A stretch of DNA of 64,000 nt, from contig QPGO01000135.1 in NCBI GenBank assembly GCA_008632985.1, forward strand, positions 1 through 64,000, given 5' to 3'. The notes under the pieces are model-generated. The model worked only from the letters and a program-made list of their open reading frames with translations, was not told the DNA's origin and made no database searches. The DNA comes from Psammoneis japonica. Taxonomy: Eukaryota. The stretch's first letter is position 1. The number at the start of each line of letters is the position of its first letter. The position numbers were made by a program, and so were the translations under genes. Below, piece by piece: positions 1 through 37,544 of this stretch.

Positions 1-160
1 TTTGTTTTGGCGGTGTCATGTTTTTGTGTCAGTTTGTCCGTGGGTGTGTCATTTCCATGCTGACCTCACATTGATTTTTGTGCTTGGCAGTGTCATGTTG
101 TCCGTGCCCCCCTTTCCCATTTCCTTTTCCCCGCTCCCATTTGTCATGTGAGGGGAGGCT

Positions 161-613
161 TGATCAGCTGGGCTGCTTGTTTCAGCACTCAAATGCCAAG
201 CATGGCAGCAGCCATCGAGGCCGGCCACATGATGGTCGTCGTTGCAGCCTCTGCTGCAGCCAAGCAGCTGCACCCCGGCCACATTGCAGAAGATCCGGTG
301 CCGATGGTTTGGTTCCTGGACAGAGCAGCCCACCCACATGACTTTCTTGAATTGGCAAAAACAAGTCGGTCCTCAAGCCCTCCACTGCAGCGCGATCCGT
401 CGCCATGGAACATGAGCTTTCTGCCCAAGCGGGCCGACTCATCAAGTCTCGCTCGGCGATCAGACCACTCGATGGGCACCCACACTTTTTCCCCGCATTC
501 ACCATTGCACCACACTGTCCCAGTTGATCCAGGACAGCAGAACACCAGCGCTGCCATCCCCACCCCGGCCTCAATCACTTCCGCCACTTCGGGCTTTTCA
601 TCTGCCCAGATGA
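161..613 (+). pseudogene. Gypsy-B RNase H / integrase N-terminal remnant (deleted copy)
   Basis: Homologous to the longer copies at 11115-12335 and 39540-41160; frameshifted. Confidence 0.5.
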
Positions 614-1137
614 CTTCATTGGGGCATTGCAAGTCTCCTGCAGGTGCACAGAAAATGCAATGTTCAGCGATGAAGAAAAAGAGTGATGATGTTGCTTTGT
701 TTCTTCTGTCATGCCCGCTTGACCGACACGAAGCTTGGGCGCATTGCTTTGTGCGCCACTTGTCTTCCGTGTCTTGCAATCTTCAGAACACTTGCTTCTT
801 GCCAAAGGAGCTGTTGGAGATCCAGCGGAAAGCAGTGTGCACGATTTTTGCAAAGTGTGGGTGCAATCGCAGTGCAAAACATGATGCGCTGTTCGGACCA
901 TGTGATCTTGGTGGAGGTGGCTTTCGTTCGTTGGATGTGGAGCGTGGCACATCCCAGTGCACGCAGTTTCTCCGACACTGGCGCAGCTGTGGTCAGCCTC
1001 ATGTTCTGTCATGCATTGCAGTGGCGTGGGTGCGGCTTCAGTTGGGCACAGGCGTCAGCTTCTTGCAGGATGTTCAGCCCACACTGCCTCACTCCGAATC
1101 CAAATGGCCCATGTCTTTGCGATCATTTTTGGCTGAA
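614..1137 (+). pseudogene. Non-LTR retrotransposon fragment (region downstream of RT)
   Basis: SLGHCKSPAG...EAW...IQRKA...KCGCNR...LFGP.DLGGGGF...FLRHWR...IAVAW..LQLG...LPHSESKW.SLRSFL resembles diatom non-LTR polyprotein motifs with Tyr replaced by Cys/His. It interrupts the CCCAGATGATGTCATTCC site that is intact at ~10152. Confidence 0.7.
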
Positions 1138-1769
1138 TCATTCCTGAGCCACTCAGTCAAGAGTGCCACGAAGCTCTGGTTTTCTGTCGTCAAGCCCAGG
1201 AAATGTTTGGCGACGCCAACAAACAGCAGCTCAACAATGCCGCCCTTGAAGCCAACGATGACTCTTCTGTTGTTTCAGACCAGTCAGCTCCTCTCTGAAG
1301 ATTCTTCCTTGCTTTGCTGCATTCTCCATCTGCATCTTTCACAGCGCACCTCATTTCTGCATTTTGTTTCTCTCTTTCAGTTTTGCAAACATTCGCCAAA
1401 GTTTGTTTTGCACTTGAGCTGAGTTCTGTGCTTCACCCATTTCCCATTTCCCATTTTCCCTTCAGCCTCACCTTTTGGCCTTTGCCCGCTGTCCGCTGCC
1501 CAAACCCAGTTAAATTGACGCACAATTTTTTGTTTGGTGGTGTCATTTTTTTGTCAGTTTGTCTGTGGGTGTGTCATTTCCATGCTGACCTGACATTGAT
1601 TTTTGTGCTTGGCAGTGTCATGTTGTCCGTGCTCCCCTTTCCCATTTCCTTTTCCCCGCTCCCATTTGTCATGTGAGGGGAGGCTTGATGAGCTGGGCTG
1701 CCCGGTTGTTTCAGCGTTCAAGTGCCAAGCATGGCGGCGGCCATCGAGGAAGGCCACATGATGGTCGTC

Positions 1770-2345
1770 ATTGCTGACAGGATTTGAGCAAGATTTCAGT
1801 TTGTCGCGCACAATCATGTGTGCTCTCAGCTCCGGGCACACCGCGCGATGCAAATTGCTTTCAAGCCACGTGGCTCACAAGAACAACAACAGCAGTGCCG
1901 ACATCATGACACCAGTCTTTCGGCTCCTGCAACAGTCTCCACATGGAGACTCATCTGCCACTCAGACAGCAGTGAGGAGTCACTGTTTTCTTCCACCCAG
2001 TCATCTTCAACTTCTGTCAGATCAACAGTCTTGCTCATTCTTGTCCACTGAGCGTTCGTCATTGTCGTCGAGAAATTTTTTGATGACGTGCACAGCTGGC
2101 GGTGGAAGCACACATCTGCCTTCTTCGCCGCTGCATGCTGGGTTAAATCCACACATTTGGTTTTGTCCAACACCTCCCATCATTGCATGTGTTTGTTCAA
2201 CGGACATTTGTTTGGTCAGGAATTCCCGAATTCTCAGAAATCTGAGATTCCGGATTCCCTGCAGCAGATTCTGCCCTGGTTGGCAGACAGACCAATCCAT
2301 CTGCTCGCGCTCATGTGCACACGACATGAGCCCTTGACTCTGGCC
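1770..2345. repeat. Unidentified repeated module U (also ~20960-21535 and ~51460-52035)
   Basis: Three diverged copies; no recognisable domain. Confidence 0.7.
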
Positions 2346-2496
2346 CTGCTTCGCAGCTCCCGCGTTTGTTCGTCCCTCCACAGTTGCCAAATTTGCCAAA
2401 TTTGGCCGGCCTGATCGGGTCATCCAACCAACACAAAATGAGAATGGTTCGGAGGTCTCCCACTCTGGCCAATCCCGACACTCACCCAGTTGCAAC

Positions 2497-4289
2497 ATGG
2501 TTCTGACCAGACAGCAACAAATCGATGGCCTCGAGCACATCCTGGGTGCTGTTCTGAATCAAGCCGCAGACAGTCCACTGCACTCCGCTCTCAACATTGA
2601 CAGAACTGACTTGCATCAGGACCTCTTTGCTTTTACTCCGATGCAACTGGGTGCCCTTGTTTGCAACAACGGCGCCAATCAAATGCCCTTGCCACATGGC
2701 TGCAAAGCACAGACAGCTGCGCTGACTGGCCTGCACATGGCAAAAGTGCGCAGCAGCACCAATGTCAGCAACAACCCCCAACTGTTCACACACGAGGAGT
2801 TCGCCGACTGGCGTCTCAGTCCTGAGCACGCAGCATCCCTCTCCATGGGCACAGCACCTTCTGCCCCCATTCCTGGCTTGTTGCCACCCAAACCACATGA
2901 CCCCATGTGTGACTTGAAACAAGGCATCAAACGCAACCCACTCACCTTCGTGCTTCTCAAGTCTGACAAACAGGGCACACGTGGCACACCTCCATCATTG
3001 CACAGGCCCGCTCCCATGAAGTTGACCGTGTTCTTGATCCGAAGCACAAGCCCTCTGCAGCTGAGGACAAGGCCCTGTTCGATGAACAACAGAAGCACAT
3101 GTTCATTGTGCTTGATGCATCTTGCAGAGTGACAAAGGCAAGGCACTCTTTTGTGAACATGTTGGCTCCTCCAATGCTCAAGCGGTGTGTCGTGACCTGT
3201 CCAAGTGCACCCTTGCTTCCACTCATGCATCCCTGGAGTCCTCAACCCTTCTCGCGCACCTCGCCACTGCTCACCTCGGTGATGGCACCTGGAAAGGATC
3301 CACTCGTGCCTTCACACTTGGCTGGCATGACCAGCTTTGCAAGCAAAAAGCTCTCATCCTGGGCACGGACCATTTCTTGGCTGGCCAGAAACGTGCCATG
3401 CTTGAGAACTCTGTTCACCCTGTCGAAGAACTGCGCTTGGCAAAGAATCAGGCTGATCAGTTTCGTGCGCAGAGTGGCAAGGGCCTTTCTTGTGAGCAGT
3501 GCCATGGACTCCTGCTTTCTGCCATGGCACAGCACGACAGCACGTTTGCACCCAAGACGGCTCCTTGTGCTCCGCACCATGCCATCTGCGAACATGACCT
3601 GGCCCCCAACGACCCCAACGACGATGCATTCTTCAACATCAACGGCGATGTTGATGTCATCCAAGCTCATGCTGTGCAAACTCGTGGCAACTCCCTCACC
3701 AGGGAACAACGGCGTCGCATTCCGCCGGACCATCAGCACATTTGGGACACCTTGCCCCAGCCCACCAAGGCCATCATTCTTGGCTCGCATGCCGCCCACA
3801 CGGGCAACTGCCATGACTTGACGGCGGTCAACCTGCGTGACCTCCGCACTGGCAGCAATGGCGATGTCAGCTTGTCCGCCAACACTCACGATCTTGCATT
3901 GGCCTCTGCACAATCCGATGCACAGCCAACGCAGCCGATGCTGACCCCACTCTGGCTCATCTCACCAGGTGCAAGCCTCTGCCACCCGGTGACTTGCAGC
4001 GTCTCCCTGCACCTGAGCTGCCTCCTTCCGCCCATTCTGGAGAGAAACCCCCCAGATCTGTGCCTTCCGTCTGCTCCAAAGCCCGATGATGCTGACGTTG
4101 AGATCAATGGTCATGAACGCCATCATGTCAACAACCACAATGTCGTCTGCTCTGCCTCGACCCAATCGTGGTGCCCCGTCCAAGCTCATCAGCAACTGTG
4201 CTCAAGTTGAGATGAGCAACAAGGTCCTTGGCATCCTCCGTGCCCTCTTCATCCCCAGTTGGCAAAGCGAGCCTCATCAACAGCACCAA
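2497..4289 (+). pseudogene. gag: Copia-2 (CoDi-like) gag with a deletion joining it to an integrase fragment
   Basis: MVLTRQQ...KQGIKRNP...LQSDKGKAL...HLGDGTWKGST, then SKLISNCAQVE...WQSEPHQQHQ; frameshifted. Confidence 0.85.
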
Positions 4290-4530
4290 ATGTGAAAATG
4301 GTAAAAAAAAGAAAAAAGGCAGAGACAAGGACTCGAACCCTTGGCTTCCAAATTTTTTCTTGTTTTGCTTTGTGCCTTTTTTCCCTTGGTTCCCTTGTTT
4401 CCCTCTGTCCCTTTTTCCCTTGTTTCCCTTTGTCCCTTTTTCCCTTGTTTCCCTTGTTTCCCTTGTCCCTTTTTCCCTTGTTTCCCTTTGTCTCTTTTTC
4501 CCTTTTTCCCTTTTTGCCCTTTTTTCTTTT

Positions 4531-4926
4531 GACGCGTTCCAGACGCAGGTGGGAATCCGTGTGACATTGGGCCCGTAGACTTCTGCGTGCGAGCTCCGCA
4601 GTAAAATCACACGGCAATTAAAATGTCAATGATCGCCAACAGAAAATGAGGCAATTTTGCGAGTGCACAAACTCGCACATGATTGAAGTGCATCATTTTT
4701 TACTCAGCCAGTTGCACTCTTCAGACATTGAAGAATGCAACTGGCGCATTGTTGTTTCCACAAATTTGTCATGTAAAATGTCTGGGGCTTCGCAAAACAG
4801 CGAGTCTGGACAATTTTTTTTAAATGTCACACGCAGAAATCTACGCATGAAACATGCGACGGATGACAAAAATTGTTGTTGTCACACGTCAGTGCTGCGA
4901 GCTCCCACCCAGGGCTGGAACGCGTC
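4531..4926. mobile_element. GAC-MITE, subfamily A
   Basis: TIR GACGCGTTCCAG-N5-GGTGGGA; TTTT on both flanks; empty site in the paralogs at ~24800 and ~37300. Confidence 0.9.
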
Positions 4927-5017
4927 TTTTTTTTTCTTTTTTCCTTTTTTTCCTTTTCCCTGACCCCAACCCAGAAGTGCTCGATGCGACAAGTTCAACG
5001 AGAGCGAGTGGAGCGGA

Positions 5018-5054
5018 CCCTGACCCCAACCCTGACCCCTGACCCCAACCCCAA
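5018..5054 (+). repeat. Eroded (CCCTAA)n telomere-type tract
   Basis: Only CCCCAA and CCCTGA variants are present; no intact CCCTAA. Confidence 0.75.
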
Positions 5055-5750
5055 ACATGACGGACTTCAAAAAAGCAAGGCTTGTTGCCGATGGACACCT
5101 CACAGACGTGCCCGTCGACAGTGTCTGTTCCGGAGCAGTGTCTCTTCGCGGCCTGCGAATGATGATCTTCCTGGCCGAATGGAGACTTGGGCCACCAACA
5201 ATGGGAGTGCTTGTCTTGAAGCTGCGACCAAGGAGAAACTGTGCATTGCAGCAGGCGACGCGTTCCAGGTCTGGGTGGGACCTCGCACTGCTGAACTGTG
5301 ACATCGACAGTTTTTTGAATCTCGTCGTATGTCGTGCACGTAGATTTCTACGTGATTTTTTCGACATTTTGTGTCATTTTATGGTGCACTCATTGAGCGA
5401 TCCGTCCAACAACTTTTGACATTTTTTGTTACAGTGCGATTCTACAATGTCTTAAGAATCGCGCAGGGCAGGCGAATTTGCAAAAACGTTGAGTGGCAAG
5501 AGGCACAATTGCACCACAAACTTGGCCGTTTATTTGATGTTGAAGACAAGTGCATCCATCAATTAAATTCTGGCACTGGGGAGCTCGCACGCAGAATTCT
5601 ACAGGCCCAATGTCACACGGAGTCCCACCTGGGGCTGGAATGTGTCAGGCCCTGAATTCGGCGAGCTGGAAGGACACATCCTTGGCATCCACAAGGCCTT
5701 GTGCGGACTCCGCAGCTCTGTCCTCAGATGGCATGAACGCTTTGCCGGTT
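5055..5750 (+). pseudogene. pol: Copia-2 reverse transcriptase fragment interrupted by a MITE
   Basis: KARLVADGHLTDVPVDSVCSG.VSLRGLRMMIFLAE...AGPEFGELEGH...HKALCGLRSS. Confidence 0.85.
5257..5646. mobile_element. GAC-MITE, subfamily B
   Basis: TIRs present; TSD AGGC; empty site GCAGGCCC at ~58300. Confidence 0.9.
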
Positions 5751-5853
5751 GCTTGCTCCAATGAACACTGGCAACTGCAGCGATTGCCCATGTGATCACT
5801 GCTTTGTTTCATGCCAAGGCACCATCGCACCCGGCTGTCCCGATGCACTCCAG

Positions 5854-6037
5854 TGAACAAACACTGCCATGACAGCCAAGAATTGGGTGCAAGACAAGAC
5901 AGAGTGTTGAACAGCATCAACAGGTTCTAGAATTGTGAGATGTCACGCTGCTGGGGCCACCAAACAAGCGACAGTGGACCAATCGCCAATGGTGCATGAA
6001 CTGCCCACATTTGTGACAGTGCATCAGCACTCATTCA
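5854..6037 (-). repeat. Copia-1 3' LTR
   Basis: Ungapped direct repeat of 9493-9676. Confidence 0.92.
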
Positions 6038-9000
6038 GTCCCCTCGAACTGACACCAGCTCCACTCAGGTCAGATCGACAGACAAATGCCACCTGATGCT
6101 GCCCTGTTCCAGGGCAGTGGCTGTGTTTTGGGGGTGGGAAAAGCCGCACCTGCGCGGCAAACCCGTTTGGTTTGTCCCCTTTTGGGACTTGCCACAGGGT
6201 GTGACTTATGATTTCCCGGAGCTTCGGTCCAGGCAACAACTTGGTTGGTGCGTCCGCTAGATTCGTGCGTCCATCTTCCCAAGCAATGCGCACTGTTCCA
6301 GCAGCTTGTGCCTCACGAGTCCTGTGACAGGCAATTGCATCATGCTTCTTCTTCAAAGTGGACTCTGGTTTAGTTGAGTTCTTGAAGACAGCTTCATTGT
6401 CGCAGAAAACGTCAGTGGCCCCATCCATGGGGATTCCGAGCATCCGAAGCTTGCAACGCAAGGCTTCAATTTGCTCCACTGCAGTCTTCATAGCCACAAA
6501 CTCCAACCCAAAAGTGGAGGACTCTACGGCATTCTGCCGCTTGGAGCAATGCAAGATGGGCGCTCGTTGGACAAATGTCAGGATCCCAGTGTGGGACCTG
6601 TGCATCACACGGCATCCAGCGTGATCAGCATCGACAAAGCAAGCAGTGGTCATGCTGTTTCCGCATGCCTCCGGCACATTCGGCGGCATTGGTTCAGCCG
6701 CGCCAGGGTGATGTTCTTCCCAATCACACTTGGCAAAGCGACTCTCGTCAAAGACGGGCTCAGTGTCATTGAACACTAGCGCAGACTTGGAATGAGCCTT
6801 CAAGCATGCAAAGACATGGAGCACCTCGTCCAGGTGTCCAACTCGTGGTGCCACTGAGCAGGAGGACATGAGCAAGACAGCGACAAAAATGTCCACTCAC
6901 CCCAGTTCAACCACCCACCGTAGCACACCGACAAGGCCTTGACAGCAGTCAGCCGTTTTGGCGTTCAACTCAGGTGAGCTGTCCAGTTCAGGCCTGTGTC
7001 CCGAGCTCAAGGGCGTCGACGCCTTCGTCGGAAGATGCCTGTCAGTTTTCTTGAGCTCCAATTCAAAATCAGCTAATGCCCTTTTGACATGAAGGTCAGA
7101 GGACATGGCCCAGCGTGTCTCACCGTCCGAGTCAGACAGCTGGTGCTTTCTGATCTGGGTGCCTGAGCACTCTTCCGGCTCGCAGACGCTTCCGTCCTTG
7201 AGCGCGCACCTAGAGCTCATGTAATCCATGACCTTCTGAGGTTCATGGGAGATGCACAACAAGTCGTCCACGTAGACAAGTGCACATTCCCAGTGCTTGA
7301 AGCCATCCGGCTTAACCGCAGCCCGCATCCAGACATCCGGGTCAGCCTTGCAAGACTCGAACCCAGCGCCACGCAGAGCAGCTGCCACATGTTCCCCAAA
7401 TCTTGCACCTGAAGATTTGAGACCATGCAAGGCCCGGACAATGATCACCGGCCTTCCTTCATTCTGCTTCCCAAATTCCAGGCCAGCAGTGGCACAACAC
7501 TTTTCCTTAGTGTGTGCATTCAAGCAGGCATTCTGAACGTCAGCACTCAGGACCTCCAGGTCATTCAGAGCTGCTGTGGTGAATGCTGTCTTAACGCTGT
7601 CACGCGACACCACGCTGGAACATGTCGATTCCTCAGGCGGATCGGTTTGATGGCCTCCGGCCACGAACCTCGCTTTACATTGGAGAGTGCTCTTGATGTC
7701 AAAGATCACATGACAGTCAATGTGTTTGCACCCGACCGGTGCAGCATCGTCATCGTGGAATTCGAACACAGGCATGACGTCACGCATTTCCTTCTCGATG
7801 GCTTTGAACCAGAAGTCGGTCCCCGTTCTGTTGTCTATCTCCACAGCTTCCTCAACAGATTTCGGGAGTTCAATTCCGAACTCATGCGCACGTTTCTAGT
7901 GACGCGACTTGACTTTCTTCAGGATCCTCGACCTGCGACGCAAGACGTCTCGGACCCACCAGTTGAAGGCTGGTTCACTGGCTGCTTTGTTCGCTGCAGC
8001 GTGCTCAGCAACCTCGACTGGGTTGGACTCCTTCAAATCCTTGAGAGGAACCCAGGATGCAGTCCCATCCTTCCATTCGACTTGCAGGTCCCAGCCTGCT
8101 GTCGTCCTCCTGGGAGCACGCCTGCCAGTCTCAGTCGTTGTGTGCCCGTCATCAGCCATTGCAGCACGGGCATCACGTCGGTGATCGACCATTTCCTCCA
8201 TGATCTGGCAGGCATTCCCTTCAGAGTCGATCTGAGCGAATGGGTTCTCTGCAATTACATTAGCAGCATGGGAATCAGTGGATCCATCAGGGAATTCCAC
8301 GTCGTGTGTTCTCGAGTCTAGGACAGGGTCATCGTTCCCAGTGCCAACAGGAACCCTGTCACCATCTCGCTTGCGTGCAATGACCCCAGCATGAGTCAGC
8401 TCGCCTCCACGTGGCAACATGACTTGAGCTGTGAGATGTTCATCTGGCCCTTCTGGGGTGTGCTCATCAGCTTCCAGTTTGGAAGCGTCAGGTTCCACGG
8501 GTTCAACGGCATCGTCCCATTCGTCCATGAAGTCGTCAGGGAGTTCAGGGAAGTCAGCACTGGCATCCTTTTCCGGGATGCTAAGCCATTCGATCAAAGC
8601 TTGATCGACCGATGCAAGATCCGTCTGGATCACCGGAGTTTTAAGGTCATCCTCCGGCATGGCCCATGCATCCTTCCGAATGATGGGTTTGCCTGATTCG
8701 GGCAAAATGATGAATGCCACATCGTCAGTGCAGTTGTCAGCTGCTCCGAGCCAACGGCCAATGCACTTCTTTTCGTGTGGGAACTCCGCCACAGGCATGC
8801 AGTGACAAACAGGTTGACACCAATCAAAGAGAGAGAGGGAAGAGATGTCGGGTGTCGAACCCGTCACCTCTTCTGGGACTCGTCCTCCCATGTCCGACAT
8901 GCTGGTCGCAATCATGCGACGGATGTCACACATCCATTTGGTGCTGTGGGACCAAAGTCGCCTGTGAGCGCCAGTCCGGCACAGAGTCGCACGGACTCTT

Positions 9001-9407
9001 TTCTTCAACTCACGAATGGATGCCTCGGCCAGGTTCTGCCAGGGGCTGCAAGGGGTGGACACCTCCTGGTGCATCCTGCATTCCTTGCAGATCTCCTTGG
9101 TCTGGCCTTCCACCATTTCCGGCACGCCATCCGACACAAGGACCTGCGGTGCGCCAATGTCATGTGTGAATGACATGACGGCATCCGGGTGGTCCTGTTT
9201 CCTCTTCCAAGGACAGAACCTGTCACACCCTCTTCCGTTGGCAAATGCGCTTCCTCCTGTCTCGCCATGTGTCGATTTAACCTTCAAAAACATTTGGTCG
9301 GAGTAGAGCAGTCCCTTGATCGCAGGGAACTTAAGCCAAGGGGCTTTCTTCCGAACTTTCCGTTTGGATGGTGTGCAGACATTACGGACCCCTGCCTGGG
9401 TCATCAC
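6024..9407 (-). pseudogene. pol: Copia-1 pol (integrase-RT-RNase H): one reading frame with two nonsense codons
   Basis: VLVSDG...SPWQNLAEASIRELK (IN); KARFVAGGH...DVQNACL...YVDDLL (RT); FVDADHAG...SKRQ..VESSTFG.EF...CDNEAV...NLAD.PTK (RNase H). ORFs 7896-9407, 6897-7844 and 6024-6896 are in frame. Confidence 0.93.
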
Positions 9408-9492
9408 TCCAAGGGTGTTCTTAGCGGCCGTCGTGCCGTTCGCAATGCCCGTTCCAGGCGATGAACATCACAGCGTGCTGGCTCTGAAAAAG

Positions 9493-9676
9493 TGAACAAA
9501 TGCCACCATGACAGCCAAGAATTGGGTGTGAGACAAGACAGAGTGTTGAACAGCATCAACGGGTTCCAGAATTGTGAGATGTTGCGCTGCTGGGGCCACC
9601 AAATGAGCGACAGTGGACCAATCGCCAACAGCACATAAACTGCCTGTGTTTGTGACAGTGTGTCAGCATTTGTTCA
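9493..9676 (-). repeat. Copia-1 5' LTR
   Basis: Direct repeat of 5854-6037. Confidence 0.92.
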
Positions 9677-10434
9677 CCAGCTCTGGGTGGGACCTCGCAC
9701 TGCTGAGCTGCGACACAATTGTTTTTTGTCATCCATCGCATGTTTCACACACACATTTCTGCGTGTTCTGTTGTGAAAAATTGTTCCATGCTGCCTGTTT
9801 TGCAAAGCCAAATGCTTTCTGTTGTGCACATCTGTGACAACAGAAATGCACTGGGTGTGTTCTTTAATGGCTGAAGAGTGTGCCCGGACACACTGCAAAG
9901 AATTTGCTTCAAGCATCGAGGAGGAGATGCGTTCGCAAAATTGACTCTGTTTCTGTTGGCAATCATTGGTGCATGTGTTGCTTGACAACTTCACTGCAGA
10001 GCTTGCGCACAGAATTCTGCGGGCCCAATGTCACAAAAAGTCCCACCTGGGGCTGGAGCCCGTCTCCCAGTTGATCCAGGACACCAGAACATCGGCGCTG
10101 CCATTCCCACCCCGGCCTCAATCACTTCCGCCACTTCAGGCTTTTCATCTGCCCAGATGATGTCATTCCTGAGCCACTCAGTCAAGAGCACCATGAGGCT
10201 CTGGTTTTCTGTTGTCAAGCCCAGGAAATGTTTGGCAACGCCAACAAACAGCAGCTCAACAACGCCGCCCTTGAAGCCAACGACAACTCTTCTGTTGTTT
10301 CAGACCAGCCAGCTCCTCTCTGAAGTTTCTTCCTTGCTTTGCTGCATTCTCCATCTGCATCTTTCACAGTGCACCTCATTTCTGCATTTTGTTTCTCTCT
10401 TTCAGTTTTGCAAACATTTGCCAAAGTTTGTTCT

Positions 10435-10830
10435 GACGCGTTCCAGCCCCAGGTGGGAGCTCGCAGCACTGACGTGTGACACAAATGATTTTTGTCATCC
10501 GTTGCATGTTTCGCACGTAGCTTTCTACGTGTGACATTAAAAAAAAATTGTCCAGACTCGCTGTTTTGCGAAGCCCCAGACGTTTTATGTGACGAATTTA
10601 TGGAAACAACAATGCGCCAGTTGCATTCTTCAATGTCTGAAGAACGCAACTGGCTGAGCAAAAAATGATGCACTTGAATCATGGGCGAGGTTGTGCGTTC
10701 GCAAAATTGCCTCATTTTCTGTTGGCGATCATTGACACTTTAATTGCCGCACAATTTTACTGCGGAGCTCGCACTCAGAAGTCTGCGGGCCCAATGTCAC
10801 ACGGATTCCCACCTGCGTCTGGAACGCGTC
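10435..10830. mobile_element. GAC-MITE, subfamily A (reverse orientation)
   Basis: TIRs present; TSD TTCT; empty site in several paralogs. Confidence 0.9.
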
Positions 10831-11114
10831 TTCTGCGCTTGAGCTGAGTTCTGTGCTTCACCCATTTCCCATTTCCCATTTTCCCTTCAGCCTCACCTTT
10901 TGGCCTTTGCTTGCTGTCCACTGCCCGAACTCTGTCAAATTGACACACAATTTTTTGTTTTGGCGGTGTCATGTTTTTGTGTCAGTTTGTCTGTGGGTGT
11001 GTCATTTCCATGCTGACCTGACATTGATTTTTGTGCTTGGCAGTGTCATGTTGTCCGTGCCCCCCTTTCCCATTTCCTTTTCCCCGCTCCCATTTGTCAT
11101 GTGAGGGGAGGCTT

Positions 11115-12335
11115 GATCAGCTGGGCTGCTTGTTTCAGCACTCAAATGCCAAGCATGGCATCAGCCATCGAGGCCGGCCACATGATGATCGTCGTTGCAG
11201 CCTCTGCTGCAGCCAAGCAGCTGCACCCCGGCCACATTGCAGAAGATCTGGCGCCAATGGTTTGGTTCCTGGACAGAGCGGCACATCCACATGACTTTCT
11301 TGAACTGGCAAAAACATGTTGGTCCTCAAGCCCTCTGTGGCAGCGCGATCCGTTGCCACTGAGCACAAGTTCTCTGCTCAAGCGAGCCAGCTCATCAAGT
11401 CTCGTTCGGCGATCAAACCACTCGATGGGCACCCGCGCTTCCCCTCTGCATTCCTGGCCCCAAGCGTCATGCATCCATGAAAGGAACAACCTTTTTGTCA
11501 GGCGCCGTTTGCAATGTGGGATGGGCAAGAGGTTGTGTGCCATCCGATCCAGATGCGCGAGCTTCTGTGGCTGCCGGGCTTCTTGGAGCTGTCCATCGGC
11601 TGACTGGGTGTGCCAACAGAGCTGATTCTCATGCAAGGACTCCAAAAAACACTGGAAATTGCAGCAGCCACCCATGTGACCACTGTTTTGTTTCATGCCA
11701 AGGCGCCATCGCACCACGCTGTCCCAGTTGACCCAGGACAACAGAGCATCAATGCCGCCATTCCCGCCCCGGCTGCACTCACGTTGGTGGCCACACCGCT
11801 TGACACAGCAACAATGTTGTTTCTTTCATTGGATTGTGTGCTTGCCAGCTGCACCTTGTACAAAGCACATGTGCAACTCCGCTTGCTGCCATGCAATGAA
11901 CCATGGTCAGCGGTGTTTTGGATCTTTGGTCTCCTGGCAGCGTGCCATCAATGGCGGGGGACGCCAAAATCCTTGCATGTCTGGACGGCATGACAAGTGT
12001 TGCCCTCGTGGGCTGCTTCTAGAAAATTGTTTTTTTTGGAAGAGGCAGCACGTGTGGTGACAGCAAAGTTCTCTGTGGCGGCGGGGTTGCCCCGGTTGAT
12101 TGTGGCGGATGCGGGCTCACTCTTCGCGGGCATCTTCGTCCAGCTGTTCAAAATCATCCAAGTTCCAGTGTTGCCGGCGCTGCAAGAAAATCATCGGGTG
12201 GCATGCAATGAGCAGCTCCACTGACATTCAAACAAGGCAGTGTGCGTCAATGTGGCCAACACATTGTCAACGGCATTGTGGAAGCAAGCAGTGCATTTCA
12301 CCTTGTGCGCCTGGTGTGCATCGCCAACCAACATG
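11115..12335 (+). pseudogene. pol: Gypsy-B RNase H-integrase remnant
   Basis: Frameshifted motifs VHR...ADS (end of RNase H); EPWSAVFLDLWSPG; GLPRLIVADAGSLFAGIF...ENHRVACNEQLH*HSNK (integrase core as recalled for diatom Gypsy elements). Confidence 0.7.
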
Positions 12336-13848
12336 ATGGATCTGCCCGGGTCAAATTGCGAGTGAGTTGAGGCTCAAATGTTGGTGCTGACAGATTGAGT
12401 CTTCTTGTGCCGCACTGCAGCCTCCATCAAGCATCTTCATTGTTGTGGCAGATGCCGCAGACTGCGGTCCTCATCACTCGTCAAAGCTCGCTTTGTGCTT
12501 GAGCTGAGTTCTGCACTTTGCCCATTTTCCATTTCCTTTTCCCTTCTCAGCTTTGCTTTCCCTTCAGCCTCACCTTTTGGCCTTTGCCCACTGTCCGCTG
12601 CCCGAACCCTGTCAAATTGACACATGTTTTTTTGTTTGGCGGTGTCATTTTTTTTGTCAATTTGTCTGTGGGTGTGTCATTTCCATGCTGACCTGACATT
12701 GGTGCTTGGTGGTGTCACGTTGTCCATGCTCCTCTCTCCCATTTCCTTTTCCCCACTCCCATTTGTCATGTGAGGGAAGGCTTGATCAGCTGGGCTGCTT
12801 GTCTCAGCACTCAAATGCCGAGCATGGCGGTGGCCATCGAGGCTGGCCACATGACAGCGGTCATTGCAGCCTCTGCTGCGATCAAGCAGCTGCGCCCCGG
12901 CGACATTGCAGAAGATCTGGTGCCGATGGTTTGGTTCCTGGACAGAGCAGCCCACCCACATGACTTTCTTGAATTGGCAAAAACAAGTCGGTCCTCAAGC
13001 CCTCCACGGCAGCGCGATCCGTCGCCATGGAACATGAGCTTTCTGCCCAATCGGGCCGACTCATCAAGTCTCGCTCGGCGATCAGACCACTCGATGGGCA
13101 CCCACACTTTTCCCCCGCATTCACCATTGCACCACACTGTCCCAGTTGATCCAGGACAGCAGAACACCAGCGCTGCCATCCCCACCCCGGCCTCAATCAC
13201 TTCCGCCACTTCAGGTTTTTCGTCTGCCCAGATGACTTCATTGGGGCATTGCAAGTCTGGCGATGAAGAAAAAGAGTGATGGTGTTGCTTTGTTTCTTCT
13301 GTCATGCCTGCTTGATCGACATGATGCAGCATGCCTCGCCACTGGACAACACGGCGAGACGTGCATGAGCCTCTTGTGCGTGGCAACGTGGCATTGTCAA
13401 CACACACCTGGGAAGCACGACCACAGGAGGGCGTGGCTCCAGGTCTCAGGCAATTCCAGAAGGATGCTAAGAGAGCATCCGTGTGAAGCACACTGGCCCG
13501 TCGTCTGGCCCACGATGGCAGCGTGATTCCACACGATGACATCACTCGTGCATGGCGCGTGATGGCTTGGTTCGCACGATCCACAATGCGAACGCACGAT
13601 CGATTTGATGCGATCCAAATGCGAACAAACAGGGACTTGGCAAGATTCCCCATTCGCACGATCCCACTTTCTCTGCTCTAAACTGGCTCACAATTTTCAC
13701 AACGACAAAGTCGTAACACATCTTCTTTTCAGCGCCCAGCACATGCATGGGGCACAGCAACATCACTCCCACATGTTGTGCGAGGCAACGAAATCTACAG
13801 AAACGAAACTACGAAATGTTGGCAGGACCAACAAATCTTAAAACGACC

Positions 13849-15285
13849 ATGAAGAAGCGGATTGAGCTGCCGATTCCGTTTGCACGGCCGGAGAAGAAAG
13901 AGCTGCAGCAGGGCGAGCACCAGACGTTCAAGCTGCGTAACAACCCTGCTGATCCGGATGGTCCAATGCACAAGATGGGCATTCCGCACCTTTCTGACGC
14001 GTTCCAGCCCCAGGTGGGACTCCGTGTGACATTTGGCCCGTAGAATTCTACGTGCGAGCTCCGTAGTACGAGAATTTAACCAATGGACATGTTTGTCTTC
14101 AACATCAAATAAACGGCCAAGTTTGTGGTGCAATTGTGCCTCTTGCCACTCGACGTTTTTGCAAATGCACCTGCCCTATGCGATTCTTAAGACATTGTAG
14201 AATCGCGCTGTAACAAAAAATGTCAAAAGTTTTTGGACGGATCGCTCAATGAGTGTACCGTAAAATGACACAAAATGTCAAAAAATCACGTAGAATTCTA
14301 CGTGCGCGACATACGACGAGATTCAAAAAACTGTCGATGTCACAGTTCAGCAGTGCGAGGTCCCACCTAGACCTGGAACGCGTCTTCTACGGCTACATGC
14401 GAGACACTCCCAATCTTTCTGTGCAACGTGGATCGCGTGCACGAAGGACAAAACATGACGACCGGGCCAGTGAAATTTGCCCTCATGCGTGACCTGCTGC
14501 AGGGCGATGCTCTGACGTCATTTGACAATGCCGCTGACAAGCAGGCATCCCAAACCAACGCCACGTGCGCAGCATGCATCGCGAAGCTAAAGGAAAGTGT
14601 CTTCCCACACAGGGCGGCACCTTTGCAGAAGCGTCATCTGAGGCGCTTCATGCGCAAGCCCGCAGAGGTTTCCACTCGTGACTGCATCGCGACGGCTGTT
14701 GAAATTAACGGCTGTGTCTCTCAGTTTCCACCCGTGACGGAGGATGGAGAAGCACTGGCACCATTGCCTGATGACAAACTGTGCGACATGTTCGAGTGCG
14801 GTGTGCCAAACGCATGGCAGAAGTTCATGACGCTACAGAATTTTGACCCGTTGGCGCATGCTGTCGCTGAATTTGTACAGTTCTGCGAGCGCATCGAGCA
14901 GGTCGAGCTTGCCGAAGGCAACCTGGACCAACATGCCAAGGTTCCACGCAAGCGGGGACATAGAACGGACAATCCTGAGTCATTGATCACGACCCAACGG
15001 AACACCCAGAAGTCGTGTGTGCCACACGGGACTGACTGTGGACATCATGCGGAGGATTGCCGTCAGCTCAAGCACCACGTGAAACGTGTCAAGACTGGAC
15101 ATTCCAGTGATGGAGGCAGCAAACCCAACACAAAACCTCAGAATGAGGAAGACATTGATGCTCTCATCGGATCGAAGGTCAAGGAGTTCTTTGCCAATGC
15201 TCAGAAAAAGCGCAAGGCACGTGAGGAGGAGCTCAATCACTTCCGCGACCTCAACACAAGTGATTCCGAAGACTCGGACACCTGA
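13849..15285 (+). pseudogene. gag: Gypsy-A gag interrupted by a MITE
   Basis: FKLRNNP...LLQGDAL..F...VFP.RA...QKRHLRRFMRKP...C..HG..CGH...DC knuckle. Confidence 0.85.
13996..14384. mobile_element. GAC-MITE, subfamily B (young, TA-rich copy)
   Basis: TIRs present; TSD TTCT; empty site at ~27865; perfect palindrome CACGTAGAATTCTACGTG at 14287-14304. Confidence 0.92.
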
Positions 15286-15333
15286 GAAGGGGGCCGACAC
15301 GATGCAGGTGGTTTTAACACATCAGATGAATGC

Positions 15334-18300
15334 ATGAATGAACAACTGAATTACCATCGTACACGTGTTGCAGGCCAATCCCGCAAACGAGTTAAAAAGA
15401 CTCATCTTGCTCCAATCTTGTTTGCAGCCATGAATGCCAAACATGGCAAGGGCAAGACTCAAACCATTGAGGCACCACCAGACAGTGGCGCCAGCAGTGC
15501 TCCACTCAACAGTCGACACTGCAAACGTCTGCGAAGCCATTCAACGGCTGAGACAAACTGGACTACGGTGGCAGGCTCGTTCAGTGCGTCCAACGACTGC
15601 ACCGTTAAATTTCGGTTACCAGAATTGTCCGAAACTGCAGAACTTAAACATGCCGTCCACGCACACAACGGAAAGTTGGGCAAGTGCGACATGATCATTG
15701 GACGTGACATTCTGGAGACACAAGGCATTGACATTGTCTTCTCTAAACAGATGACAGAGTGGCCATTGGTCAATGGAGAAGTGCCAATGAGGCACGCAGA
15801 TGCTGCGGTAGAAACCTCCTTCTATCTTCAAGATCCAGAAGCCTCATCTTCGGAAACCGACCGGATGTCACGCATTTCAGACGCTAAGTGCGCGCTGGCC
15901 TGCCTCAAGGACATAACGCGAGAGGCAATGGGACTTTCTGCAGTTCAACAAAACGACCTTTTGGCACCATTGAAATGCCATGAGTCCTCATTTGATGGGA
16001 CATTGGGAGAATGGAAGGGAGAACCCTGCCACATCCAACTCAAGGAGGGTGTAGAACCACACCACGCTCGTCCATGTAAAGTGCCTCGTGTGCACAAAGC
16101 TGCGCTGCGTAAAGAAGTAGAACGCCTGGCACGCATCGGTGTTCTCAAACGCGTTGACCGATCCCAATGGGCAGCTCCATCATTTGTCATGCCAAAGAAA
16201 GATTTAACGGTGCGCTTCATCAATGATTTGAGAGAGCCAAATGAACGGATCAAGCGATTGCCTCATCCAATTCCTCGTGTCCAAGACATGCCACTTGAGC
16301 TCGAAGGCTTCATGTGGGCCACATCGCTGGATTTAAATGTGGGCCATTGTCACATCCGATTGGACACTGATGGCAAGAAGCTCTGCACGCTCATCTTCCC
16401 GTGGGGCAAGCATGAGATGCAGGCATTGCCCATGGGATCATGCAACTCGCCAGACATTTTCCAAGAACGCATGTCAGGCTTGTTTGAAGATCTGTCGTTT
16501 GTTCGAACGCACTCAGATGACCTTCTCGTTGTGACGAAAGGCACCTGTGAAGATCACCTCAACAAACTTGAAGAAGTTTCATTGAGGGTCCAGAAAGCAG
16601 GGCTAAAAGTCAGTGCAACTAAATCTCACTTCTGTCAAACCCAATTGGAGTGCTTGGGTTGTCTGGTCAACAGAGACGGAGTGCGACCAACACCCAACAA
16701 AGTCGACGCCATTGAGCGAATCGTGACCCCAACCAACAAATGCGACCTGCGCTCATTTGTTGGCATGGTGAGCTGCTGCCGTGACACATGGATTAGACGT
16801 TCTGAAGTCTTGGCTCCGCCAACACGACTCGTAAGCGAGACTGTTGAGTGGGAGTGGACGTCCGTTGAAGACGAGGCGTTCGAAACCGTTAAACGGGTGA
16901 TGTCGGATGATGTTTTGTTGTCACATCCTGATTTTAATGAACCCTTTGAGACACATGCCGATGCCTCTAAATGTCAATTGGGAGCAGTCACATCCCAAGA
17001 CAATGAACCTGTCGCCTTTTACAGCAGAAAGCTCAACAGTGTGCAATTAAATTGTGCAACAACGGAGAGAGAATTGCTCGCCATTGTGGAGACGTTGAAA
17101 GAATTTCGAACAATTCTCCTTGGTCATCGCACAATTACACATGCTGATCATAAAAATCTTACGTGCAAAGCATTCAATGCCGAGCGCGTCATGCGCTGGC
17201 GGTTGATGTGCGAAGAATGCGGTCCCGAATTACGCTGTGTTGAGGGCACCCACAACCCAGTCGCTGACGCTCTTGGTCGCCTTCGACCAGCACCCAGCTT
17301 GCCTTCCGAGGCCAATCCGGATGTAAAAGACACTCCATCGAGTCATCCTTTGCATGAAGCTTTTAATGCAGACGCGCAAGATGAGATGTCTCTGCCTGTT
17401 GGCTTCAAGCGCATTCAAAAAGCACAACAAAAGGACAAGCGCCTGCTCTCACGAGCTGAGGACTCGTCCAACTGCTCCATTCGCGCGCATCGTGGGGGAG
17501 GGTCATCACGACAGTTAATCTGTCATAAGGACAAAATCGCAGTGCCACAGTCATTGCAGGTTCCGCTAACTGAATGGTGCCACGAGACACTGTGTCATCC
17601 AGGTGAGACACGTGCGGAAATGTCTGTTGCCCAGCACTTCTGCTGGCCTGGCATGAGGTCTACGGTGCATTCTACGTGCATCAAGTGCGATCGATGCCAG
17701 AAGACAAAACGCCGAATGCAGCATTGTGGGAAGCCACCAGAAAAGGTCGCAGAGATAATTCCATGGGAGACTCCATGCATGGATGTGACAGGGCCACATA
17801 AAATTCAAAGACGCGGAAAGGACACTTTGCAATTGTGGGCAGTCACAATGATTGACCCAGCAACCGGATGGTTCGAGATTGAAGAAGTGTCTGCGAAACG
17901 CGCAGACGTCGCAGCAAACGTCGTGGAACAAACGTGGCCATGCAGACATCCGTGGCCAACCCAGGTGGTTTATGACCGTGGGACAGAATTTATGGCAGAA
18001 TTCAGCCAGATGATTAAAAATGACTGTGGGATTTTGAAGAAACCCACAAGCAAACAGAATCCACAGGCGAATGCCACAGTGGAACGTGCACACCAGACAC
18101 TTGGCAACATGGTGCGTTCCTTTTCAGCACAGGGTGTGGAACTGGACAAAGATGACCCATGGAGTGGCATCCTCTCCGCAGTGGCCTTTGCCATCAGAGC
18201 TGCGGCACATGCGACCACGCGTGCAAGTCCCATGCAATTGGTCTTCGGACGCGATGCAGTTTCATCTGTTGCCCATCGTGCCAAGTGGAAGCGCGCAAGA

Positions 18301-19462
18301 TGAGATGTCTCTGCCCATTAGCTTCAAGCACATTCAAAAAGCACAACAAAAGGACAAGCGCCTGCTCTTACGAGCTGAGGACTCGTCCGACCACTCCATT
18401 CGCACGCATCATGGGGGAGGGTCATCACGACAGTTAATCTGTCATAAGGACAAAATCGCAGTGCCACAGTCATTGCAGGTTCCGCTAACTGAATGGTGCC
18501 ATGAGACACTGTGTCATCCAGGTGAGACACGCACGGAAACATCTGTTGCCCAGCACTTCTGTTGGCCTGGTGTGAGGTCTACGGTGCATTCTATGTGCGT
18601 TAAGTGCGATCGATGCCAGAAGACAAAACGCCGAACGCAGCATTGTGGGAAGCCACCAGAAAAGGTCGCAGAGACAATTCCATGGGAGACTCCATGCATG
18701 GATGTGACAGGGCCATATAAAATTCAAAGACGCGGAAAGGACACTTTGCAATTGTGGGCAGTCACAATGATTGACCCAGCAACCGGATGGTTCGAGATTG
18801 AAGAAGTGTCTGCGAAACGCGCAGACGTCGCAGCAAACGTCGTGGAACAAACGTGGCCATGCAGACATCCGTGGCCAACCCAGGTGGTTTATGACCGTGG
18901 GACAGAATTTATGGCAGAATTCAGCCAGATGATTAAAAATGACTGTGGGATTTTGAAGAAACCCACAAGCAAACAGAATCCACAGGCGAGTGCCACAGTG
19001 GAACGTGCACACCAGACACTTGGCAACATGGTGCATTCCTTTTCAGCACAGGGTGTGGAACTGGACGAAGATGACCCATGGAGTGGCATCCTCTCTGCAG
19101 TGGCCTTCGCCATTGGAGCTGTGGCACATGTGACCACGCGTGTGAGTCCCATGCAATTGGTCTTCGGACGCAATGCGGTTTCATCTGTTGCCCATCGTGC
19201 CAAGTGGAAGCACATAGAAGCCAGAAAGCAGAAGCTTGTCCACTTGAACAACAAGCGTGAACATCAGAAACGCAAGGAGCATCAATGTGCCGTCGGGCAA
19301 TTGGTGCTTGTCAAACAGGAACAATCCTCTAAATGCGGTTCTGACAGCCATGCAGGACCCGCCAGAGTTGTCCGTGTGTGTGACAATGGCATGTTGCGCA
19401 TCCAGAACAGAGCGCTGATGGATGCGCACAATCTACGGCAGATTGCACCCCATCACCAGCAA
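15334..19462 (+). pseudogene. pol: Gypsy-A pol (protease, RT, RNase H, integrase) with an internal 919-bp duplication
   Basis: PDSGA; DMIIGRD; SLDLNVGHCHI; HSDD (YLDD site); HADAS.CQLG; FYSRKL; ADALGR; H...H...C..C; YDRGTEF; ERAHQTL. Confidence 0.93.
17373..19210 (+). repeat. Tandem duplication (919-bp period) of the integrase region
   Basis: 17402 GCTTCAAGC matches 18321; the junction at ~18291 shifts the frame. Confidence 0.9.
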
Positions 19463-19932
19463 CACATCCTGTCACTCAACGGCCCTGATCATGGGGGAGT
19501 GTGCAGCATGCCTCGCTGCTGGACAACACAGCGAGACCGTGCATGAGCCTCTTGCACGTGGCAACGCAGTGTTGTTAACACGCACCTGGGAAGCATGACC
19601 AAAGGAGGGCGTGGCTCTGGGTCTTAGGCAATTCCAGAAGGATGCCAAGAGAGCATCCGTGTGAAGCACACCAGCCCGTCGTCTGGCCCACGATGGTGGC
19701 GTGATTCCACACGATGACATCACTCATGCACAGCGCATGATGGCTTGGTTCGCATGATCCACAATGCGAACGCACGATCGATTTGATGCGATCCAAATGC
19801 GAACGAATGGGGATTTGGCAAGATTCCCCATTCGCACGATCCCACTTTCTCTACTCTAAACCAGCTCACAATTTTCACATCGACAAAGTCGCAACACATC
19901 TTCTTTTCAGCGCCTGGTGCATGCATGGGGCA

Positions 19933-37519: not shown

Positions 37520-37544
37520 ACATGACGGATGGCACAAAGCAAGG

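What the first reader, a model, noticed from the sequence alone, without database searches (positions are those of the whole stretch)
5854..9676. Copia-1 LTR pair differs only by transitions, mostly CA<->TG doublets
The two 184-bp LTRs align without gaps. By eye there are 26 differences, all transitions: 11 CA/TG doublets plus 4 singles, two of which keep TA in one LTR (TTCTAG/TTCCAG and CATAAA/CATGAA). Shared CpGs survive (CGCTG, AGCGA, ATCGCC). LTRs are identical at insertion, so each doublet implies one ancestral dinucleotide hit on opposite strands after integration. Restoring TA turns CCCACATTT/CCTGTGTTT into CCTATATTT, a TATA-like motif. About 14% divergence with no transversions suggests a young element that was rapidly mutated, so LTR dating would be misleading.
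Basis: partly seen in the sequence, partly recalled or inferred. Interest (0 to 1): 0.85.

Follow-up and report, generated by a model that had tools for sequence, protein, structure and literature searches.

The report
TpA hypermutation scars on retrotransposon LTRs
The two end-repeats of one jumping gene differ almost only because each TA in them was independently rewritten to CA or TG after insertion, the footprint of a TA-targeted DNA mutation process so far described in print for a single alga.

Summary
The LTRs at 5854-6037 and 9493-9676 align without gaps. They differ at 26 sites, all transitions: 11 CA/TG doublets plus 4 singles. Random placement of 26 transitions gives 0.93 doublets on average.

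The pair belongs to one 5'-truncated Ty1/copia insertion on the minus strand. It has a 4-bp target duplication (CCAG) and three uninterrupted paralogous target sites in the window.

- The whole window has TpA obs/exp 0.10 and CA/TG about 1.6.
- At 28 family-conserved tyrosine (TAY) columns this copy keeps 2 Tyr and has 15 Cys (TGY) and 11 His (CAY).
- Between two Gypsy copies in the window, 33 of 35 informative in-codon doublets trace to TA and 2 to CG.

TA sites changed roughly 700-1700 times faster than background. There is no strand clustering, and the adenine in 5'-TAC is hit preferentially. Without TA and CpG sites the LTRs differ at 1 of 184 positions, so LTR dating would mislead.

The signature matches TpA->TpG/CpA hypermutation measured in Bigelowiella natans (bioRxiv 2026). 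I rate it a new instance of a recently described process, here on LTR retrotransposons and near saturation. The organism and the enzyme remain unidentified.

The parts
5850..5853 (.). Target-site duplication CCAG, left copy
   Evidence: identical CCAG at both ends; paralogous empty sites hold one CCAG.
5854..6037 (-). 3' LTR of the Copia element (the element lies on the minus strand), 184 bp, TG..CA ends
   Evidence: gapless partner of 9493-9676; 26 transition differences, 11 of them CA/TG doublets.
6038..6045 (-). Purine-rich tract (GAGGGGAC on the sense strand) next to the 3' LTR, polypurine-tract-like
   Evidence: read from the sequence; not tested further.
6024..9488 (-). Degenerate polyprotein frame (P0001, 1155 codons, in-frame stops TGA, TAG, TGA): integrase region, then RVT_2 reverse transcriptase, then RNase H region. 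The gag/protease part is missing.
   Evidence: 62% identity to P0002 starting at its residue 285. Tyr to Cys/His.
9473..9492 (-). Stretch just inside the 5' LTR where a primer-binding site is expected; no canonical match recognised
   Evidence: by eye only; not tested against tRNAs.
9493..9676 (-). 5' LTR of the Copia element
9677..9680 (.). Target-site duplication CCAG, right copy
   Evidence: the contig joint 5849->9677 has 4 ambiguous letters.
25575..25618 (+). Paralogous uninterrupted target site (also at about 38560-38600 and 58680-58720)
13325..19932 (+). Gypsy/Ty3 copy A (LTRs 13325-13754 and 19502-19932; internal 920-bp tandem duplication 17373-19211), used as comparator; same TA->CA/TG scars
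27250..33011 (+). Gypsy/Ty3 copy B (5' LTR truncated), comparator
53996..54428 (+). Solo LTR of the same Gypsy family, comparator
1..64000 (.). TpA-depleted, CpA/TpG-enriched repeat landscape in which the element sits
   Evidence: TA o/e 0.104, CA 1.61, TG 1.62, CG 0.66. TA o/e is 0.00-0.33 in every 2-kb bin; 64 of 64 1-kb windows have rho TpA <= 0.43, and 48 of 64 also have rho(CpA+TpG) >= 1.52.

Best explanation
One Ty1/copia element, truncated at its 5' internal end, inserted into a repeat and made a 4-bp duplication.

After integration, a DNA-level process converted T:A to C:G specifically at TpA. Each hit turns TA into CA (T of the top strand) or TG (T of the bottom strand). The two LTRs were hit independently at almost every TA, with an estimated per-copy hit probability of about 0.96. 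Where the two copies took opposite outcomes we see a CA/TG doublet. About as many sites should have taken the same outcome in both copies and are now invisible.

The same process has almost erased TpA from all 64 kb of this transposon-derived window. It runs beside a slower CpG decay.

Shown: the direction (TA ancestral), the timing (after integration), the action on both strands without strand runs, and the speed (about 10^3 times background).

Inferred: that it is an enzymatic, repeat- or foreign-DNA-directed defence of the kind measured in Bigelowiella natans. Most likely it is adenine deamination (A to inosine, read as G) by a TadA/ADAT-type deaminase acting on DNA, because the adenine in 5'-TAC is hit in preference to the adenine on the other strand of the same site.
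For: LTR pair and single insertion.

TA ancestry:
- 28 conserved Tyr columns give 2 Y, 15 C, 11 H. Tyr is 0.26% of the copy against 3.57% in 60 intact relatives.
- of 133 differing conserved columns, 55 fit a single TA->CA/TG change, 17 a CpG change, 12 another transition, 27 a transversion, and 22 need two or more changes.
- Gypsy A against B, 33 TA: 2 CG: 2 unclear among 37 in-codon doublets. Of 24 conserved Tyr columns, only 1 is still Y in both copies.
- 6 three-state TA/CA/TG columns against 2 CG/CA/TG.
- a third, older element has 0 of 10 conserved Tyr left (4 C, 4 H, 1 F, 1 A).

CpG cannot supply the doublets. Decay estimated from the 3 surviving CpGs predicts 0.04 CpG-derived doublets. 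A saturated CG model predicts 0.011 shared CG against 3 seen (P = 2e-7).

Generality:
- 987 doublets, 387 TA/CA or TA/TG sites and 2159 CpG-type sites in 95,941 aligned repeat columns.
- the two other LTR pairs show 12 and 9 doublets, with only 3 and 1 non-TA, non-CpG differences.

Rate: 677-1695 times background.

No strand runs: z = -0.11, 0.59, -0.3.

Context: the adenine followed by C is hit in 32 of 39 CTAC/GTAG events and 25 of 32 GTAA/TTAC events. TTAA is the best survivor, and ATAT occurs once in 64 kb.

Contigs of run X1, which may not be independent of the window's assembly: of the 40 best-supported differences to this copy, only 1 restores TA; 6 rows are 3 CA/TG doublets.

Precedent: de novo TpA->TpG/CpA mutations in mutation-accumulation lines of B. 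natans, with a rate about 1000-fold above the rest of the genome and an ADAT2-like candidate. I read Results and Discussion of bioRxiv 10.64898/2026.01.13.699255.

A review passage states that a TadA-derived editor variant prefers a 'YAC' context (PMC13109818, passage read).
Against: - The 11 LTR sites themselves could not be polarised with other copies of this LTR (the table was cut).
- A minority of doublets elsewhere do trace to CG: 2 of 35 and 2 of 8 three-state columns. So about 0.6 of the 11 could be CpG-derived.
- A single-rate model fails for the Gypsy interior: 45 shared TA beside 81 doublets. The process must depend strongly on context, which weakens the simple likelihood argument.
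- The window holds no recognisable host gene. Targeting to repeats, as opposed to a genome-wide bias, is therefore not shown.
- The sequencing technology behind the window is unknown, and run X1 may be the window's own source.
- The enzyme and chemistry are not observed. Thymine modification with mispairing would give the same letters.
Confidence: 0.85

Rival explanations
1. Ancestral CpG. Methyl-cytosine deamination hit the top strand in one LTR (TG) and the bottom strand in the other (CA).
For: CpG decay is real in the window: CG o/e 0.66 and 2159 CG/CA or CG/TG sites between repeat copies. There is one CG/CA difference in this LTR pair. 2 of 35 informative Gypsy doublets and 2 of 8 three-state columns trace to CG.
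Against: Three CpGs survive in both LTRs, while a saturated CG model predicts 0.011 (P = 2e-7). Decay estimated from the survivors predicts 0.04 doublets. Tyr columns and in-codon doublets point to TA. TpA, not CpG, is the dinucleotide that has vanished.
Confidence: 0.04
2. Assembly or base-calling artefact. A modified base at TpA is misread as C on whichever strand was read, and polishing picks CA or TG at random.
For: Such an artefact would give exactly this letter pattern. The technology behind the window is unknown. Only 0.49 of the sampled 31-mers of the element are held by run X1.
Against: - In X1 contigs, only 1 of the 40 best-supported differences restores TA. Contigs themselves show CA<->TG doublets, and C/G where the window keeps T/A: A>G at 120 places and T>C at 116.
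- TpA loss scales with CpG loss and element age across the window.
- The same signature was obtained from Illumina mutation-accumulation lines in B. natans.
Confidence: 0.05
3. RNA editing before integration: ADAR-like A-to-I editing of the transcript, fixed by reverse transcription.
For: ADAR favours a 5' U (as stated in the preprint's Discussion). Such editing could add to changes in the internal region.
Against: Both LTRs are copied from the same template and are identical at integration, so LTR-LTR differences cannot arise this way. Both strands are hit at neighbouring sites, with no strand runs. A post-integration tandem duplication inside Gypsy A also carries 7 doublets.
Confidence: 0.02
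4. The process is real but not targeted. The whole genome has a strong TpA->CpA/TpG mutational bias, visible here only because transposon relics are unconstrained.
For: No host gene lies in the window to serve as a control. Every 2-kb bin is depleted.
Against: In B. natans the rate is 1000-fold local and confined to foreign DNA. In this window, bins at TA o/e 0.3 abut bins at 0.00-0.07, which indicates a time-dependent erosion of inserts. Neither point settles it for this organism.
Confidence: 0.1

Closest known systems
TpA hypermutation of integrated viral DNA in Bigelowiella natans (Mettrop et al., bioRxiv 10.64898/2026.01.13.699255; abstract, Results and Discussion read)
   Same: Both show exclusively T/A->C/G at TpA, giving TpG or CpA depending on strand. 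Both run about 10^3 times the background rate. Both leave a long-term TpA-depleted, CpA+TpG-enriched footprint in reverse-transcriptase and transposase sequences. 48 of 64 1-kb windows here pass that paper's two cut-offs.
   Different: There the targets shown are an integrated giant virus and a virophage at moderate depletion (rho TpA 0.45). Here the targets are LTR retrotransposons at near saturation (rho 0.00-0.33 over 64 kb). The words LTR and retrotransposon do not occur in its main text. The 5'-TAC preference and the LTR-pair demonstration are not in the sections I read, and its supplements could not be opened. Whether this window is from that species is unknown.
Repeat-induced point mutation (RIP) of fungi
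   Same: Both cause transition-only hypermutation of repeated or mobile DNA in the genome, on both strands, with dinucleotide specificity. Both make LTR dating and homology searches misleading.
   Different: RIP runs in the opposite direction: C->T, mainly at CpA, which creates TpA and lowers GC. Here TpA is destroyed and GC rises. Dependence on duplication and on a sexual cycle is unknown here.
CpG methylation-deamination decay
   Same: It also ends in TG/CA, and it operates in this window as a second, slower process.
   Different: It starts from CG and does not explain TpA loss or the Tyr->Cys/His replacements.
APOBEC3 / ADAR editing of retroelements
   Same: Both are deaminase-made transition clusters in retroelements. 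ADAR and TadA-type enzymes favour a 5' U/T.
   Different: Those act on single-stranded cDNA or RNA before integration. They are strand-coordinated and leave the two LTRs alike. Here the changes follow integration and show no strand runs.
Diatom-type Ty1/copia elements (CoDi / Blackbeard)
   Same: The polyprotein shows 50-66% identity to many intact relatives with an RVT_2 domain. One relative is named from Fragilaria crotonensis. An Atlas cluster is auto-named Blackbeard.
   Different: This copy lacks the N-terminal 270 or so residues and has lost nearly all tyrosine codons. No closer relative than 66% was found in 5.8 billion proteins.

Membership tests
Ty1/copia LTR retrotransposon | RVT_2-type reverse transcriptase | tested here: met
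   PF07727, E = 1.4e-9, 38.3 bits against a cut-off of 31.6. All 120 listed relatives carry PF07727.
Ty1/copia LTR retrotransposon | Integrase upstream of reverse transcriptase | tested here: inconclusive
   No rve hit in this copy. In relatives P0039 and P0094, rve lies at 293-469, before RVT_2 at 844-1108, but scores 26 bits, below the 32.6 cut-off.
Ty1/copia LTR retrotransposon | Direct LTRs with TG..CA ends and a short target-site duplication | tested here: met
   The TSD is 4 bp (CCAG), confirmed by empty paralogous sites.
Ty1/copia LTR retrotransposon | Complete gag-protease region (autonomous copy) | tested here: not met
   The alignment to P0002 starts at its residue 285, and there are three in-frame stops. 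This is a truncated, dead copy. That does not affect family assignment of the remainder.
TpA-directed T:A->C:G hypermutation (B. natans type) | Changes are TpA->TpG / CpA only, on both strands | tested here: met
TpA-directed T:A->C:G hypermutation (B. natans type) | TpA depletion coupled to CpA+TpG enrichment (rho <= 0.43 and >= 1.52 per 1 kb) | tested here: met
   64 of 64 windows pass the first cut-off, and 48 of 64 pass both.
TpA-directed T:A->C:G hypermutation (B. natans type) | Rate about three orders of magnitude above the local background | tested here: met
   677-1695 times, from three LTR pairs. This is a rough estimate.
TpA-directed T:A->C:G hypermutation (B. natans type) | Confined to foreign or mobile DNA, sparing host genes; active only in some lineages | not testable with these tools
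   No host gene lies in the window and no genome is held.
Fungal RIP | C->T at CpA giving TpA excess | tested here: not met
   TpA o/e is 0.10 and CpA/TpG are in excess. Polarised changes run from TA to CA/TG.
Pre-integration deaminase editing (APOBEC/ADAR type) | Strand-coordinated runs; LTRs of one insertion alike | tested here: not met
   Runs tests give z = -0.11, 0.59, -0.3. The LTRs differ at 13 TA-type sites.

The most novel reading that the evidence does not exclude
This organism runs a mirror image of fungal RIP: a DNA adenine deaminase of TadA/ADAT ancestry (preference 5'-TAC). It is directed at integrated retrotransposons and erases TpA to saturation over tens of kilobases.

The organism may lie outside the chlorarachniophytes, since the elements' nearest named relatives are diatom-type. 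If so, TpA hypermutation would be a widespread eukaryotic genome defence rather than a peculiarity of one alga.
Probability: 0.3. Interest if true: 0.85.

Novelty: new member of a known kind. Interest (0 to 1): 0.65.

Why it matters
TpA-directed hypermutation is known from one 2026 preprint, and its enzyme is unidentified.

This window gives a natural, internally controlled demonstration. Paired LTRs, a confirmed single insertion and three element families show that the process acts on integrated LTR retrotransposons after insertion. It acts on both strands, reaches near saturation, and has a measurable neighbour preference (5'-TAC). That preference narrows the search for the enzyme.

There are practical consequences:
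- LTR-divergence dating overestimates age roughly ten-fold here.
- Tyrosine codons turn into Cys or His.
- TAA and TAG stops vanish, so long spurious ORFs appear in all six frames.
- Homology searches lose sensitivity.

Anyone annotating such genomes needs to know this.

Tried and rejected
- Whole genome: none is held, so no genome-wide LTR census or host-gene control was possible.
The total size of run X1's contigs (141 Mb) argues against a gigabase genome. I dropped it as an identification. Thymine modification is kept only as an alternative chemistry.
The only named relative is a diatom reverse transcriptase at 54% identity, which does not identify the host.
- No RNA holder is listed for the element. 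This says nothing on expression.
- Other copies of this LTR: none in the window by BLAST or in purine/pyrimidine space; 0 matches to a degenerate LTR pattern in metagenome contigs; no relative in viral contigs. Read laying put 4956 contig pieces on the element, but only 40 of 593 variable places are printed, and none lies in an LTR.
- Earlier notes of this scan: nothing found.
- Pfam on 23 long ORFs: only the two Gypsy elements hit.
- The 745-codon ORF at 34562-36796 has relatives (best E = 1.6e-85). One of the five relatives scanned is fused to RVT_2, so I read it as another Copia-like relic.
- Literature: four searches found no second description of TpA->CpA/TpG hypermutation. All other hits were fungal RIP or unrelated. 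A search for the TadA context preference first hit 'YAC' as yeast artificial chromosome. One review passage was usable.
- A single-rate model for TA decay is rejected for the Gypsy interior: 45 shared TA against about 2 expected (my arithmetic).
Full report
**The observation**

The region 5854-6037 and the region 9493-9676 are a gapless 184-bp direct repeat with TG..CA ends. They differ at 26 positions, and 26 of 26 are transitions. In purine/pyrimidine coding the two copies are identical, and the next best place in the window reaches 66%.

The differences are:
- 11 CA/TG doublets
- one TA/CA site (5928)
- one TA/TG site (5997)
- one CG/CA site
- one other C/T site

No TA is shared and three CG are shared. 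Placing 26 transitions at random on the LTR gave 0.93 doublets on average and never more than 6 in 100,000 trials.

**One element, one insertion**

The coding frame lies on the minus strand (6024-9488). It carries a Pfam RVT_2 domain. It aligns at 62% identity to an intact 1370-residue relative, starting at that protein's residue 285. The copy therefore lacks gag/protease, and it has three in-frame stops. In two relatives a sub-threshold integrase match lies upstream of RVT_2, which is the Copia order.

CCAG flanks both LTRs. Three paralogous copies of the target repeat elsewhere in the window run straight through a single CCAG. One contig of run X1 joins 5849 to 9677 with four ambiguous letters. 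The refuter 'LTRs from different elements' is therefore rejected.

**The surroundings change the picture**

Dinucleotide observed/expected values for the whole window:

| Dinucleotide | obs/exp |
|---|---|
| TpA | 0.104 (385 TA in 64 kb) |
| CpA | 1.61 |
| TpG | 1.62 |
| CpG | 0.66 |

Every 2-kb bin is depleted in TpA, from 0.00 to 0.33. The least depleted bins are two Gypsy/Ty3 elements (13325-19932 and 27250-33011). On both strands together there are 339 TAA and 181 TAG, against 2778 TGA. This is why 61 ORFs of 200 or more codons appear across all six frames.

**Is the ancestor TA or CG?**

Four independent tests point to TA.

1. *Copia polyprotein against 60 intact relatives.* Of 28 columns with a conserved Tyr (TAY), this copy keeps Tyr in 2 and has Cys (TGY) in 15 and His (CAY) in 11. 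Tyr is 0.26% of the copy against 3.57% in the relatives. Of 133 differing conserved columns:
   - 55 are explained by one TA->CA/TG change
   - 17 by a CpG change
   - 12 by another transition
   - 27 by a transversion
   - 22 need more than one change
2. *The two Gypsy copies.* They align without gaps over 4069 bp and show 81 CA/TG doublets. For the 37 doublets that lie inside a codon of the 1005-codon ORF, the family consensus of 60 relatives supports a TA ancestor in 33 and a CG ancestor in 2, and is unclear in 2. Of 11 His/Cys pairs, 10 sit on a Tyr consensus and none on Arg (binomial P = 4e-8 for 33:2).
3. *Three-state columns.* In the five-copy Gypsy LTR alignment and a three-copy internal stretch, columns holding CA, TG and a third state have TA as the third state 6 times and CG 2 times.
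4. *An older element.* A relic at 34562-36796 has 0 of 10 conserved Tyr left (4 Cys, 4 His, 1 Phe, 1 Ala).

For the Copia LTR itself, CpG decay estimated from its three surviving CpGs predicts 0.04 CpG-derived doublets. A saturated CpG model predicts 0.011 shared CG against 3 observed. The TA model, with one parameter (p = 0.957), predicts 0.05 shared TA against 0 observed. It implies about 24 ancestral TA in 184 bp.

**Limits of this inference**

- The 11 LTR sites were not polarised directly. No other copy of this LTR is in the window. The metagenome and viral-contig scans found none.
- About 6% of doublets elsewhere do come from CG, so roughly 0.6 of the 11 may.
- A single-rate model fails in the Gypsy interior, where 45 TA are shared beside 81 doublets. 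Survivors concentrate in TTAA, GTAA, CTAC and CTAA. Sites with A before or T after the TA are nearly exhausted, so context matters strongly.

**Properties of the process**

- *After integration.* LTRs start identical, yet all three LTR pairs of the window differ mainly at TA-type and CpG-type sites. Doublets number 11, 12 and 9; non-TA, non-CpG differences number 1, 3 and 1. A 920-bp tandem duplication inside Gypsy A has also acquired 7 doublets.
- *Speed.* TA sites changed about 677-1695 times faster per site than the background.
- *Strand choice.* It is random from site to site. Runs tests on 81, 55 and 11 ordered outcomes give z = -0.11, 0.59 and -0.3. The two Gypsy copies agree in outcome at 12 Tyr columns and disagree at 9 (P = 0.66).
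- *Which strand of an asymmetric site is hit.* This is not random. Among 183 sites where a paralogue still holds TA, the adenine followed by C is preferred:
  - over the one followed by G in 32 of 39 events
  - over the one followed by A in 25 of 32 events
  - TAT beats TAA 10 to 2
  - TAC beats TAT 10 to 2
  
  These events share some ancestry, so the P values are optimistic.
- *CpG decay runs alongside.* There are 2159 CpG-type sites in 95,941 aligned columns, against 987 doublets and 387 TA-type singles.

**Artefact check**

A modified base at TpA misread on either strand could mimic the pattern. Against this, contigs of run X1 laid at 80% likeness gave 4956 pieces. Variable places by kind of change:

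| Change | Places |
|---|---|
| A>G | 120 |
| T>C | 116 |
| C>T | 172 |
| G>A | 157 |
| Transversions | 28 |

Of the 40 best-supported differences to this copy:
- only 1 restores TA
- 2 show TA in the window where the contigs have CA or TG
- 6 rows are three CA/TG doublets
- 21 are CpG-type
- 10 are other changes

So the contigs are TA-poor too. X1 may be the window's own source, which leaves a small residual doubt.

**What is known**

Four full-text searches returned one relevant work: Mettrop et al., bioRxiv 10.64898/2026.01.13.699255. I read its abstract, Results and Discussion.

In mutation-accumulation lines of Bigelowiella natans, 231 of 302 new mutations fell in an integrated giant virus and a virophage. 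All but one were A->G or T->C, all at TpA, at about 6e-7 per site per generation against 3.5e-10 elsewhere. TpA-depleted, CpA+TpG-enriched clusters were enriched in reverse-transcriptase and transposase domains. An ADAT2-like deaminase was proposed.

The present window meets that paper's cut-offs in 48 of 64 1-kb windows, and 64 of 64 for TpA alone. The rate ratio agrees. The words LTR and retrotransposon do not occur in its main text.

The preference for 5'-TAC fits a TadA/ADAT-type enzyme only loosely. A review passage says one TadA-derived editor prefers 'YAC' (PMC13109818, passage). That the natural TadA substrate reads U-A-C-G is my recollection, not a call.

**Organism**

The organism is not identified. 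Intact relatives of the Copia and Gypsy proteins are plentiful in ENA, JGI and Logan assemblies, at up to 66% identity, and have normal tyrosine content of 2.9-4.6%. One is named from the diatom Fragilaria crotonensis, and an Atlas cluster is auto-named Blackbeard. This does not tell whether the window is from B. natans, another chlorarachniophyte or an unrelated protist.

**Verdict**

It is an instance of a process described once, very recently. New here are:
- LTR retrotransposons as targets
- near saturation over 64 kb
- the paired-LTR proof of post-integration action
- absence of strand runs
- a neighbour preference

I rate it a new member of a known kind, with interest 0.65.

Noticed in passing
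window 13325-19932, 27250-33011 and 53996-54428: There are two Gypsy/Ty3 copies of one family, 92.6% alike over 4069 gapless bases, plus a solo LTR. Copy A carries a 920-bp internal tandem duplication (17373-18292 / 18292-19211) that duplicates the integrase zinc-finger/core region.
   Followed up: partly
whole window, both strands: Because TAA and TAG have almost vanished (339 and 181 against 2778 TGA), 61 ORFs of 200 or more codons appear across all six frames. Most have 0% tyrosine and raised His/Cys. Gene callers would predict many false proteins here.
   Followed up: partly
window 34562-36796 (+): A 745-codon ORF with no Pfam hit has 2384 relatives at E <= 0.001 (best E = 1.6e-85, 39% identity). 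One of the five relatives scanned is fused to an RVT_2 domain. It is probably the N-terminal half of another, older Copia-like polyprotein, with all conserved Tyr lost.
   Followed up: partly
whole window, 8-kb bins: CA outnumbers TG on the plus strand in every bin (ratio 1.06-1.17), and C outnumbers G overall (17924 against 15340). This is a mild, uniform strand asymmetry of unknown cause; element orientation, replication or transcription could be involved.
   Followed up: no
whole window: The surviving TA are strongly context-biased: 87 TTAA, but only 1 ATAT and 2 TATA in 64 kb. CpG obs/exp tracks TpA obs/exp across bins (0.46-0.97), which suggests cytosine methylation of the same repeats.
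   Followed up: partly
window 9677-10065 and about ten related stretches (e.g. 5257-5648, 10435-10831, 22168-22559, 41975-42370): A repeat of about 390 bp flanks the Copia and recurs in both orientations. Summed contig depth over 9673-9800 in run X1 is about ten times that of the Copia interior, so it is a very high-copy family of unknown type.
   Followed up: no
window 7896-7898 (minus-strand TAG stop): This in-frame stop is private to this copy. All the contig depth laid there (35 contigs) reads C at 7897, giving TGG (Trp). The change is a G->A that created a TA, the opposite direction to the main process.
   Followed up: partly
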